DNA from: Candidatus Babeliales bacterium | Lineage (GTDB): Bacteria; Babelota; Babeliae; Babelales; JANWKD01 | Length of the DNA stretch: 64,000 bases | Assembly: GCA_963701665.1 (NCBI GenBank) | Contig: OY969622.1 | Coordinates: 1 to 64,000 of the forward strand | Direction: 5' to 3' | Part shown: piece after piece, positions 36,001 to 39,000 of the stretch | Position numbering within the stretch: position 1 is the stretch's first letter | How the letters are laid out: each line of letters opens with the position of its first letter | Position numbers: made by a program

Positions 36001-39000
36001 AACACAGAAAATCCTGCAACTTGAACAGGGATAGATGGAGCAACCTTCTTGAGCATGCGTCCGCGCGAATCCATCAATGAACTTACTTTGCCATGTGAAT
36101 TGCCAGCAATAAAATAATCACCAACGGCAAGAGTACCCTCATGACAGAGCACCGTTGCAACGGCACCGCGTCCTTTTTCCATCCGCGCTTCAAGAACAAA
36201 TCCTTTTGCAGGTACCGCCTCATCGGTCGTAAGTTCCATGAGTTGCGATTGTAAGATAATCATCTCAAGCAAATTATCAACACCTTGTCCTGTTTTTGCT
36301 GAAAGTGGCACAAAAAGTGTCTGCCCACCCCATTCTTCAGGTACCAAGTCATGCTGCGCAAGCTGACGCTTTACGGTCTCAATTTGCATAGGCGTTGCTT
36401 TATCAATCTTATTGACCGCAACAATAATAGGAACATTTACCGCTTTTGCATGCTTTATTGCTTCTACCGTTTGTGGCATAACACCATCATCAGCCGCAAC
36501 AACTAACACCGCAATATCAGCAACCTTTACGCCACGAGCACGCATTTTAGTAAATGCAGCATGGCCAGGAGTATCAAGGAAAACGATGTTTCCTTGCGCT
36601 GTTTCGGCTTGGTATGCACCAAGATGTTGCGTAATACCACCTTGTTCTTTTGCTGCAACTTTTGTTTTGCGAATGAAATCTAATAATGTTGTTTTACCAT
36701 GATCAACATGACCGATAATAACAACAACCGGAGAACGGCTATGCGTTTGAGCAGAGCTACGCACAAACGGCTTATGTACATCTGCCCCAACGATAGCTGG
36801 TTGCATTGTTTTTATGCCATAATGGCGCGCAATATGCTCAATTGTTTTTATTGGAAGTAATTGATTTTTAGGAGATACGAAACCCTGCTTTAAAAGCGCA
36901 ACGATAACCTCGCTTACTGGCTTGTGCATTTTGTGTGCAACTTGTGCCACTGTCATTGGCTCAAGCACTAAAACAATCTCACTGCCGTTTTTTGCAGAAG
37001 ATTGTACTGGTTGTTGTGCAACCCTTGGCGCTTCAACAACATGCTGAACAGCAACAGGTTGTGCTTGTTTTTCAGGAATTATTTTTGAAACAGGTTTTGG
37101 TTTTTCAGGTTCTTGCACCGTTTGCTTTTGAGGAGTCCCTGATGCCGGTTTTGTTACGAGATCAATTGCCTCTTGCGAAAGGGCAGACATATGGGTAAGG
37201 CCTTCAAAACCTGCATGCTGCAATTTGTCAATCAACTCTTTATTTGATAACCCAATTTTTTTTGAGAGTTCGTATACACGCATATGTTTTAATTTTACCC
37301 TATGAAAGAAATTTTATGTTACATGACCATGCGTTGATTTTTCGCATCATCCCTATGCTCAATGATCAAGGTGCTCATCTTCATGCTGACTGAGCTTATT
37401 TGAACCACTTTGTACCAAGTGAATATTTACTCCCGTTAGTTGGGATGCCAATGAAATATTTTGTCCCATTTTGCCGATTGCGAGTGACCGCTGATCTTCT
37501 TCTAAAAAAACGTTTGCATTTCTAGCATCAACCATCTCAACACGCGATACAGCTGCTGGTTTTAAAGCATCTCTGACGAGAAGCTCAGGAGAATCATGCC
37601 ACGAAATAATATCGATTTTTTCTGTGCCAAGCTCTTTGAGAATTGGTTTTATACGTACACCACCAACACCAACACAGGTACCGACAGGATCTATGTTAGC
37701 ATCATGAGAAACAACGGCAACCTTTGATTTGTAGCCGGGAATTCTCACTACTTTCTTTATCTCAACCAACTTTTCAAAAACCTCAGGAATTTCTAATTCA
37801 AATAGCTTTTCGATGAACATAGGCGACACGCGATCCAAAATCAGCTGATTATCATTTTTAGGTTCAGGCAATACATCCTTCAAAAGGACCCGAATGGAGA
37901 ACCCAACCGCACATTTTTCACCAGGAATCGTGAGCGATTTTGGTAAAAAGGCAAGGGCATCTTCAATTTTAACAATTACACCATTACGCTCACACTTGTG
38001 AACTATGCCATGAACAATAGTGCCTTTTTTATCTTTAAATTCATTGTAAATTGCTTCGGCTTCAATATGCCTAATTTGATGAGCAATAACCTGCTTTGCA
38101 CGCAAAATTTCAATACGCCCGATTTTTCCTTCAAAAGGAACCCAGATTGTATCGCCCGCTGCAATATCAGGATTTATATTTTTAGCTTTTCGGAAACTAA
38201 TTTCAGTATCTTCATGAGTAACGGTTGGCACCACGGTTTTTTGGACATTAACCGCTATTTCGTCAGATTTCTTATCGTAATCGACCTGGAAGTGGAGGTC
38301 TGGATAGCGTTTGGCATATGCAGCAAGCATGCCTTCGCAAATAATAGAACTGAGAACAGAGCGCTCTAAGCCTTTCTCTTCGACGAGCTCTTCAATAACC
38401 TGAAAAAGTTTCACGATTTCCTTTGTTAAAAAATAGAAAAATTAGGGTGTGTAGTTAGAAGTCTAGCAAAATTTTAGAAAAAAAGAAGGATGTTGTTGTT
38501 GGCCGCCTCCATTATCCACATTTTTTGGCTGGCTTATTATTAGTTATATATAATTTATTATATAAATATAATAATAGGCTAGCGCGTTTTTGTGGATAAC
38601 TTAGCCAATTTTTCTAAAAAAGGGCTAAGTTAACAGGTGTTTTCATCTGTTCTCGTATGTGGATAACCATGTGGATAACATGTGGATAACTTCAGGTGAA
38701 GGTTAAAAAATGCGATTATTGGCTTGCTTTCAGAGATACGGGCTTGGAAAGCTTCTTCAAGAGGCCCTTTTAAATGATGGCTAAAAAGTTATCCACATGT
38801 TATCCACATAGTTATCCACATAGTTATCCACATTTTCTATGTGAAATAAACCCATTATTTTGCGTTTTTTGCTAAGGAAATTGCTAATTTTATATCCTGG
38901 CAAAAATTTTTCAATTCATCGGGGTTTCTGAGGATATAGGCTGGATGGTAAGTGGGTACAACAATATACCCATTTTTGTGTTGCTGAGTGCCTCGGATTT

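What a model noticed while it worked through the whole genome (the two positions that open the first line are those of the whole stretch)
38500..38840. oriC lies upstream of nusA, half a chromosome away from dnaA, which sits at the terminus
The origin is an AT-only unwinding stretch followed by two opposed arrays of 11-12 bp phased DnaA boxes upstream of nusA. dnaA, dnaB, dnaN-recF, recA, gyrA and ssb all lie 0.44-0.49 of the chromosome away, at the terminus, the reverse of the usual bacterial layout. The layout holds across Babelota.
Evidence so far: Nine perfect TTATCCACA boxes at 38511-38832, the only such cluster; GC skew turns positive near 40 kb and negative at 717-731 kb, and rRNA and ribosomal operons are co-directional with this origin; distances in call 182. 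A tandem-box pattern hits 18 of 61 genomes, control pattern 0; all 14 loci cut lie next to nusA. In 15 of 16 near-complete genomes dnaA and nusA are on one contig, 39-59% of the (rounded) genome length apart; 10 of the 16 show the two arrays at one mismatch, 5 more show variant boxes by eye. Sampled skew flips at nusA and near dnaA in G027 and G079.
(Added by a program. Inside this text positions count along the whole contig: contig position 1 is position 1 of the stretch shown here. "Call 12" and the like, gene names such as g00115 and contig names such as C1 are that model's own, and its searches are not shown. The text may have been shortened before it was handed on; [...] marks where a part breaks off. 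The agent that wrote the report below was given it as the finding of a first reader that could run no searches.)

Follow-up and report, generated by a model that had tools for sequence, protein, structure and literature searches.

The report
Replication genes parked opposite the origin
In Babelota, bacteria that live inside protists, the predicted replication origin is a regular DnaA-box array beside nusA, while the genes for the starter protein, helicase and sliding clamp lie nearly half a chromosome away around the predicted terminus, a reversed layout that likely persists as an inherited rearrangement but could act as a timing device.

Summary
Confirmed and sharpened. Nine perfect DnaA boxes lie at 38,512-38,832, the genome's only cluster. 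The anatomy is conserved across Babelota: AT tract, DnaA-trios, a lone box 13-14 bp away, a helically phased step, then two opposed arrays at 11-bp pitch. GC skew turns from - to + across it in 9 of 9 genomes. With this origin, 28 of 28 16S genes and 27 of 27 rplB genes run with the fork. The predicted terminus is not dnaA itself (0.38-0.49 away, 32-190 kb from the dnaB-dnaN pair) but a module rplI-dnaB -> dif <- recF-dnaN-xerD. dnaB and dnaN converge in 29 of 29 genomes. A dif-like site lies between them in 18 of 19 genomes with XerC and XerD, and in 0 of 7 without. The origin is an ordinary E. coli-like DnaA origin; the phylum-wide gene layout is the unusual part. dnaG, dnaX, dnaE and polA are not terminal, and other genes also keep their positions, so selection for the layout is unproven. 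One paper already placed one species' origin by skew and boxes; another placed it at dnaA. This scan noted the layout twice before on other genomes. There is no replication assay.

The parts
35289..37283 (-). infB (IF-2), downstream of nusA; context
   Evidence: TIGR00487, E 5e-178
37359..38414 (-). nusA, transcribed away from the origin on its DUE side; next to the array in 27 of 30 and 33 of 60 loci
   Evidence: TIGR01953 over cut-off; adjacency
38512..38520 (+). Extra perfect DnaA box between the nusA start and the AT tract; seen in only a few relatives, possibly regulatory
   Evidence: similar box in L018, L019, L082, L113
38544..38576 (.). AT-only run of 33 bp, core of the predicted duplex-unwinding element
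   Evidence: conserved position
38569..38577 (+). Three DnaA-trios (TAA TAA TAG, i.e. 3'-GAT/AAT-5'), 13 bp from the lone box
   Evidence: three or more TAR trios in 42 of 57 distinct origins, spacer 13-14 bp in 40 of 57
38591..38599 (-). Lone DnaA box next to the trios (R1-like position)
38600..38657 (.). 58-bp spacer, predicted bend; step to the left array is 66-68 bp in 45 of 57 origins, otherwise about 55, 78 or 89 bp; IHF consensus in only 1 of 51
38658..38689 (-). Left array: three perfect boxes at 12- and 11-bp pitch, same orientation as the lone box
38690..38788 (.). 99-bp central spacer between the arrays
38789..38832 (+). Right array: four perfect boxes at 11, 12, 12 bp, opposite orientation
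38855..39439 (-). Family 4 uracil-DNA glycosylase, frequent neighbour on the far side of the origin
   Evidence: TIGR00758
60358..61734 (-). mnmE (trmE), a usual oriC neighbour, 22 kb from the array; within 0.15 of the chromosome from it in 16 of 17 single-contig genomes

Best explanation
The array at 38.5-38.8 kb is likely the chromosome's single DnaA-dependent origin, served from a distance by a dnaA gene that lies 632 kb away, and forks from it would meet near a predicted dif site between the convergent dnaB and dnaN genes. Shown: the elements, their spacing and conservation, the skew switches, gene positions and orientations. Inferred from E. coli and B. subtilis origins: ATP-DnaA fills the lone box and the two phased arrays; an HU-family protein bends the 58-bp spacer; the DnaA filament extends onto the trios, melts the AT tract and loads two DnaB hexamers. 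The forks would run about 682 and 655 kb, and XerCD with FtsK would resolve dimers at dif. Inferred history: in the common ancestor the usual origin gene cluster broke up. mnmE stayed by the origin, while dnaA, rplI-dnaB and dnaN-recF came to lie by the terminus, re-oriented with the forks, and xerD now heads dnaN-recF. The layout likely survives because DnaA acts in trans, because a host-bound parasite pays little for low gene dosage, and because later inversions keep distance from the origin. About 0.93 that this is oriC; about 0.6 for the whole account including the 'inherited, not a device' step.
For: Only box cluster. Tandem-box pattern in 94 of 261 genomes, control 1. nusA adjacent in 27 of 30 loci, the other 3 at contig ends. 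In 20 further genomes cut upstream of nusA, 13 show both arrays at one mismatch, 4 more with lineage variants and 3 are weak. Trios, 13-14-bp spacer, helical steps and 11-bp pitch (244 of 289 steps) are conserved in 57 distinct origins. Skew goes - to + across the array in 9 of 9 genomes and keeps its sign across dnaA in 8 of 8. 16S 28 of 28 and rplB 27 of 27 are co-directional. The dif-like site at 721,026 scores 30.1 against 18.5 for the next best in the genome (it was in the training set) and splits the chromosome 0.51/0.49. Such sites occur in 18 of 19 genomes with a XerC/XerD pair and 0 of 7 without. dnaA flanks hold no box cluster in 22 genomes. For inheritance: rplB (0.18-0.39), 16S (0.10-0.30) and mnmE also keep their distance from the origin, and dnaG, dnaX, dnaE, polA and priA lie elsewhere.
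Against: No replication, binding or read-depth data. The global skew minimum of this assembly is 157.7 kb; removing it needs a 77-kb inversion, supported by an IS200 transposase and 77-78% inverted repeats at its ends, but a misjoin is not excluded. The contig shows no terminal overlap and has frameshifts. Only 492 of 956 long ORFs run with the fork. In G029 the array is degenerate and dnaB/dnaN lie at least 130 kb past the skew switch; in G007 the switch is about 30 kb beyond dnaN. 13 of 80 oriented loci gave no anchor in the anatomy count. Against the 'inherited only' step: dnaB and dnaN positions are far tighter (sd 0.017) than rplB or 16S (0.05), and their convergence persists in 8 genomes lacking the Xer pair. 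Relatives are not independent samples.
Confidence: 0.6

Rival explanations
1. Same origin and terminus, but the terminal position of dnaA, dnaB and dnaN is a selected timing device. These genes would double only when a round finishes, so initiator, helicase and clamp supply per origin would drop during a round and recover at its end, standing in for autoregulation and partition controls that these genomes appear to lack.
For: dnaB/dnaN convergence in 29 of 29 genomes at 0.43-0.50 in 17 single-contig genomes, kept even where Xer/dif is lost. No DnaA-box cluster upstream of dnaA in 22 genomes, two with short flanks. ParB in 0 of 95 genomes. No Hda-like second hit in this genome. Babelota grow as large bodies and divide late (PMC4378268, PMC6561590, passages).
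Against: Genes nearest the terminus move least under origin-symmetric inversions (established knowledge), so tight positions are expected without selection. dnaG, dnaX, dnaE, polA and priA are elsewhere. dnaA itself wanders 32-190 kb from the dnaB-dnaN pair. G029 departs from the pattern.
Confidence: 0.32
2. The nusA array is a DnaA sink or regulatory box cluster (datA-, DARS- or DBC-like), and replication starts near dnaA/dnaN with an inverted skew polarity.
For: One paper places the Babela massiliensis origin 152 nt upstream of dnaA by skew (PMC4378268, passage). dnaA, dnaN, recF, gyrA and rpmH are usual origin neighbours and lie on that side. Genome-wide strand bias is weak.
Against: All 55 rRNA and rplB genes tested would be head-on. 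A dif-like site sits between dnaB and dnaN and tracks XerCD. No box cluster near dnaA, dnaN or dif. The array carries trios and an AT tract at the BUS spacing. Skew does not switch at dnaA.
Confidence: 0.04
3. In this genome the origin is at the global skew minimum, 157.7 kb, or the pattern comes from an assembly misjoin.
For: Cumulative skew minimum at 157,701; assembly with frameshifts.
Against: One box at one mismatch in 150-165 kb; the replichores would be 563/774 kb; flipping 80.6-157.8 kb back puts the minimum at 38,286; eight other genomes switch skew at the nusA array.
Confidence: 0.02

Closest known systems
Escherichia coli oriC (DUE, R1, bend site, left array, opposed right array; PMC13643167, introduction read)
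   Same: AT tract, then a lone box, a spacer of conserved helical phase, a left array in the lone box's orientation and an opposed right array. E. coli oriC is also not adjacent to dnaA (gidA and mioC are indicator genes in Ori-Finder).
   Different: All array boxes are full-consensus or one lineage variant, not low-affinity sites. No IHF consensus (1 of 51). DnaA-trios are present. dnaA is 0.38-0.49 of the chromosome away, against roughly 0.01 in E. coli (recalled).
Basal unwinding system (BUS) origins, e.g. Bacillus subtilis (PMC8287927, passages)
   Same: Three or more trios within 16 bp of a box, peak spacer 10-13 bp, 3'-GAT-5' most frequent next to the box (TAG in 31 of 46).
   Different: Usually one box rather than a tandem pair beside the trios. 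Not flanking dnaA. No Babelota name found in that paper's held supplement.
Published origin calls in Babelota: Chromulinavorax destructans (PMC6561590) and Babela massiliensis (PMC4378268), passages
   Same: The C. destructans origin was placed by skew and the TTATCCACA box.
   Different: In the passages returned, neither paper describes the anatomy, the nusA neighbour or the distance to dnaA. The B. massiliensis call (upstream of dnaA) conflicts with the phylum-wide pattern; I did not test that species by name.
Other lineages with oriC away from dnaA (hemE in Alphaproteobacteria, hemB in Chlamydia; indicator genes)
   Same: oriC is uncoupled from dnaA. From memory, Chlamydia dnaA genes lie a large fraction of the chromosome from oriC (recalled, not tested).
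   Different: I found no report of dnaB and dnaN-recF converging on dif with xerD heading dnaN. nusA is not among the indicator genes (0 occurrences).
Opposed tandem-box origins of Poribacteria and a few others
   Same: Same four-box opposed pattern; 16 of 60 hits, 13 titled Poribacteria.
   Different: There the arrays lie next to dnaA, so the architecture does not require the Babelota layout.
XerCD/dif/FtsK terminus system (consensus recalled)
   Same: 11-6-11 site with a TTATGTTAAA-like arm, XerC and XerD genes and FtsK present.
   Different: Left arm is CYGATAA-like. The site lies inside a conserved dnaB-dif-recF-dnaN-xerD module and is lost with the Xer pair in some lineages.

Membership tests
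DnaA-dependent bacterial oriC | Cluster of DnaA boxes in an intergenic region, unique in the genome | tested here: met
DnaA-dependent bacterial oriC | Adjacent AT-rich unwinding element | tested here: met
   33-bp AT-only run, one of 20 runs of 25 bp or more in the genome; conserved position
DnaA-dependent bacterial oriC | At the - to + skew switch, opposite the terminus | tested here: met
   9 of 9 genomes; 0.46-0.50 from dif in 10 single-contig genomes; in this genome a local minimum, global after re-inversion
DnaA-dependent bacterial oriC | Cognate full-length DnaA with domains I, III and IV | tested here: met
   150 of 150 genomes
DnaA-dependent bacterial oriC | Initiates replication (binding, unwinding, marker frequency) | not testable with these tools
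   No raw reads; best public run holds 12% of the words, as contigs
BUS origin | Three or more DnaA-trios within 16 bp of a DnaA box | tested here: met
   TAATAATAG 13 bp from the box here; 42 of 57 distinct origins by a strict TAR rule; definition
E. coli-type oriC | Two oppositely oriented phased arrays on one side of the DUE with a lone proximal box | tested here: met
E. coli-type oriC | IHF binding consensus between the lone box and the left array | tested here: not met
   1 of 51 spacers (consensus recalled); two HU/IHF-family genes score below all HU and IHF cut-offs
XerCD dif site (721,026-721,053 of the contig) | 28-bp site with two arms around a 6-bp core, single copy, near the skew maximum | tested here: met
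   10 kb from the skew maximum at 731,165
XerCD dif site (721,026-721,053 of the contig) | Co-occurs with XerC and XerD | tested here: met
   18 of 19 against 0 of 7; 11 of 12 against 0 of 7 without the training genomes
XerCD dif site (721,026-721,053 of the contig) | Polar KOPS-like motifs pointing to it | tested here: inconclusive
   GGGNAGGG 17:6 only; the best-looking octamer was a repeat-gene artefact
DnaA sink (datA/DARS/DBC-like) | Box cluster separate from a real origin elsewhere | tested here: not met
   No second cluster in the genome, none at dnaA in 22 genomes

The most novel reading that the evidence does not exclude
A whole bacterial phylum has placed its initiator, helicase and clamp genes at the replication terminus, with dnaB and xerD-dnaN-recF converging on dif, as a selected device. 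Their gene dose doubles only when a round ends, tying the next initiation to completion of the last in cells that lack ParB and show no DnaA boxes at the dnaA promoter.
Probability: 0.3. Interest if true: 0.85.

Novelty: new variant of a known kind. Interest (0 to 1): 0.62.

Why it matters
dnaA and dnaN are the default markers for finding oriC, and their place by the origin is treated as a near-rule. A phylum in which dnaA, dnaB and dnaN lie at the far side is a natural experiment on whether that position matters for initiation control; it can be mimicked by gene relocation in laboratory E. coli or B. subtilis. It gives a rule for orienting Babelota genomes (origin upstream of nusA, terminus between dnaB and dnaN) and questions one published origin call. 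The origin itself is a stripped, all-consensus version of the E. coli design with variable helical spacers across 57 natural copies, useful for testing phasing rules.

Tried and rejected
KOPS-like motif: GTCCAYGT looked polar (39:0 and 88:9), but 118 of 136 copies fall in two bins that hold tandem-repeat genes; rejected. Three of ten exact dif-pattern hits (two in G007, one in G029) lack the left arm and lie elsewhere, and the reversed control pattern also hit 7 times, so these were taken as chance. Read-depth test: only Logan contigs with 6-12% of words, so no reads were laid. Box variant against DnaA domain IV: TTATCCACC lineages mostly have GRDH and TTATCCACA lineages RKDH, but G010 and G122 break the pattern and lineage confounds it; inconclusive. 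IHF site: not found. Promoter scan: 2 sites, 2.4 expected. Simple origin-terminus swap: rejected as the whole story, because dnaB and dnaN converge rather than diverge, mnmE stays at the origin and yidC sits mid-arm. The gene before mnmE is not recognised as jag. The second DnaA-family hit at 1,012.8 kb is a generic AAA+ protein. One paper on oriC prediction rules was not held.

Full report
Observation. The window holds nine perfect TTATCCACA boxes at 38,512-38,832, against 0.76 expected. They lie between nusA (37,359-38,414, minus) and a family 4 uracil-DNA glycosylase gene (38,855-39,439, minus). In the 1,337,192-bp single-contig genome this is the only cluster: 9 boxes in 400 bp at one mismatch, next best 3. 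The order is: an extra box (38,512), an AT-only run (38,544-38,576) ending in three DnaA-trios (38,569-38,577), a 13-bp spacer, a lone box (38,591), 58 bp, three boxes in the same orientation (38,658-38,689), 99 bp, and four opposed boxes (38,789-38,832).

Conservation of the element. A tandem-box pattern matches 94 of 261 genomes of the phylum and the reversed control 1. Of 30 loci cut, 27 have nusA next to the array; the other 3 end at contig ends. A four-box opposed pattern gave 60 loci among the genome-contig collection (185,579 species): 33 beside nusA, 2 beside udg only, 16 beside dnaA (13 titled Poribacteria) and 9 with none of the three. The largest family mostly lacked the exact pattern (3 of 80), so I cut the nusA upstream region from 20 genomes. 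Thirteen show both arrays at one mismatch, often as TTATCCACC; 4 more show other variants (3 at two mismatches, 1 by eye); 3 are weak or degenerate (G029, G031, G085). Of 80 oriented loci, 13 gave no anchor and 57 distinct origins remained after removing duplicates. Among these, 42 have three or more TAR trios, 40 have a 13-14-bp spacer, and the step from lone box to left array is 66-68 bp in 45, 55-56 in 6, 78 in 3, 89-90 in 2 and 65 in 1. Box pitch is 11 bp in 244 of 289 steps and 12 bp in 39. Spacer length changes by whole helical turns while its sequence drifts, as expected of a protein-bound, bent origin. An IHF consensus (recalled) occurs in only 1 of 51 spacers; two HU/IHF-family genes exist but match neither family's cut-off.

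Which end is the origin. In this genome skew turns positive at 38,286 and negative at 731,165. A reversed stretch at 79-158 kb makes 157,701 the global minimum. That stretch is bounded by an IS200 transposase gene and by inverted repeats of 77-78% identity, and flipping it in silico moves the global minimum to 38,286; a misjoin is not excluded. In eight other genomes sampled in 20-kb blocks, skew is negative left and positive right of the nusA array in all eight, and it keeps its sign across dnaA in all seven sampled on both sides, weakly in G007 and G227. I picked by eye 29 genomes with dnaA and nusA on one contig from 150 genomes of at least 93% completeness; a thirtieth, G187, 526 kb apart, was noticed later and left out. 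The two genes are 0.36-0.50 of the rounded genome size apart. With the origin at nusA, 28 of 28 16S genes and 27 of 27 rplB genes on those contigs run with the fork, including 26 of 26 lying between the two genes where no circular join is assumed. With the origin at dnaA all would be head-on. No box cluster flanks dnaA in 22 genomes; 3 single one-mismatch boxes were seen, and two genomes had short upstream flanks. Genome-wide strand bias is weak: 492 of 956 long ORFs.

The terminus. A search for a recalled dif arm found one perfect site, at 721,026-721,053, 10 kb from the skew maximum, giving replichores of 682 and 655 kb. It lies between rplI-dnaB-ruvC (plus strand, 717-721 kb) and recF-dnaN (minus, 724-726 kb), with xerD at 730 kb, a second Xer at 809 kb and ftsK at 600 kb. 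dnaB and dnaN converge in 29 of 29 genomes, 2-59 kb apart. An exact pattern hit 9 of the 29 genomes; 7 hits share a CYGATAA left arm and lie between dnaB and dnaN, and 3 are chance-like. A matrix from those 7 was run on the dnaB-dnaN interval of 19 more genomes. It found clear sites in 11, scoring 16.7-26.5; 8 exceed the best of 29 control blocks (18.6). All 18 sites face the same way relative to dnaB. They occur in 18 of 19 genomes with two strong Xer genes and in 0 of 7 without (11 of 12 against 0 of 7 without training genomes; kin are not independent). The one miss, G251, has its interval broken by the contig end. Three of the 29 genomes were not scanned. A Xer gene lies within 13 kb of dnaN in 21 of 21 Xer-pair genomes, upstream on the same strand in 20 and under 500 bp away in 8, so xerD appears to hold the place that dnaA usually holds ahead of dnaN-recF. 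Skew turns negative at this module in 6 of 8 genomes (weakly in G120), about 30 kb beyond it in G007, and at least 130 kb before it in G029.

How far the reversal goes. With exact lengths for 17 single-contig genomes, distance from the origin is dnaA 0.38-0.49, dnaB 0.43-0.50, dnaN 0.43-0.50, gyrA 0.25-0.46, rplB 0.18-0.39, 16S 0.10-0.30 and mnmE 0.02-0.15 with one at 0.30. dnaA is 32-190 kb from the dnaB-dnaN midpoint. In this genome dnaG (0.22), dnaX (0.39), dnaE (0.37), gyrB (0.37), polA and priA (0.07) are not terminal (dnaE, gyrB, polA and priA by recalled motifs only). In four other genomes dnaG and dnaX are also away from the terminus. rpmH lies on the terminus side and yidC by the S10 operon in 5 of 5. 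The usual origin neighbourhood is thus scattered, most of it to the terminus. ParB was found in 0 of 95 genomes.

Mechanism. Inferred from E. coli (PMC13643167, abstract and introduction read) and the BUS definition (PMC8287927, passages): DnaA binds the lone box and both arrays, a bent spacer brings the left complex to the trios, the AT tract melts and two helicases load. DnaA is diffusible, so its gene need not be adjacent; Poribacteria carry the same opposed arrays beside dnaA. I favour an ancestral rearrangement kept by inheritance (0.6), since unrelated genes also keep their origin distance and several replisome genes are elsewhere. The rival, a selected dosage and timing device (0.32), is supported by the tight, convergent dnaB/dnaN placement that outlasts loss of Xer/dif and by the lack of ParB and of boxes at dnaA. 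My data cannot separate the two.

What is known. PMC6561590 (passages) placed the Chromulinavorax destructans origin by skew and the box; the passages returned say nothing of dnaA's distance. PMC4378268 (passages) placed the Babela massiliensis origin 152 nt upstream of dnaA by skew, which conflicts with the pattern here; I did not test that species by name. [quoted passage not shown] The BUS paper's held supplement has none of five Babelota names. 10.1101/808410 (passages) adds nothing on the layout. Ten searches (listings only for the other papers) found no description of this layout. Subscription journals, the DoriC database and bioRxiv supplements were not visible and may hold one. That oriC can lie away from dnaA is established; a large dnaA-oriC distance in Chlamydia is recalled, not tested. 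Two earlier notes of this scan report the same layout on other genomes; my reading was set before I saw them.

Verdict. The origin is a known kind; the chromosome layout is a new variant. Interest 0.62.

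Noticed in passing
G000:C1:79,400-157,800 (L102, L103): A 77-kb stretch with reversed skew, bounded by an IS200 transposase gene and 77-78% inverted repeats; likely an inversion, possibly a misjoin.
   Followed up: partly
phylum-wide: No ParB-family match in 95 of 95 genomes at least 95% complete; how these chromosomes segregate is open.
   Followed up: partly
G000:C1:566,305 and 1,273,286; NAD-dependent ligase absent in 5 of 5 genomes and ATP-dependent ligase present in 5 of 5; already reported for Babela (PMC4378268).
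   Followed up: yes
L105-L116, L120, L121, L124: Lineage-specific DnaA-box variants (TTATCCACC, TTATGCACC, TTATCAACC, TTATCAACA) replace the whole array in step; the DnaA domain IV loop differs (GRDH against RKDH) in most but not all of these lineages.
   Followed up: partly
G005, G007, G010, G022, G029, G031, G182, G227: The XerC/XerD pair is missing or weak, apparently in separate lineages, and the dif-like site is missing in the 7 scanned; FtsK was not found in G007 and G227 but was in G005, G029 and G182.
   Followed up: partly
L034, L035, L040, L042, L044, L046, L051, L052, L057, L060, L064, L073, L076, L062, L086; L037, L049, L055: Poribacteria, one Binatia and one Desulfocucumaceae record carry the same opposed tandem-box arrays beside dnaA; Gloeomargarita records carry them with no dnaA or nusA within 2 kb.
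   Followed up: no
G000:C1:824,000-842,500 and 1,293,600-1,308,000: Long tandem-repeat protein genes in several copies; the source of the false polar octamer.
   Followed up: no
window 6,362-15,768: Type II secretion or pilus cluster with two secretin (GspD-like) genes, GspC-like and PilM-like genes.
   Followed up: no
window 17,802-24,214 and 50,659-53,046: Runs of ankyrin-repeat genes, typical of the phylum; a Fic-domain gene at 1,080-2,189 and an IS982 transposase at 26,276-27,109.
   Followed up: no
G000:C1 gyrA 773-776 kb, tuf 456 kb, fusA 454 kb, rplB 460 kb: Frameshifts in essential genes, likely long-read indel errors in the assembly.
   Followed up: no
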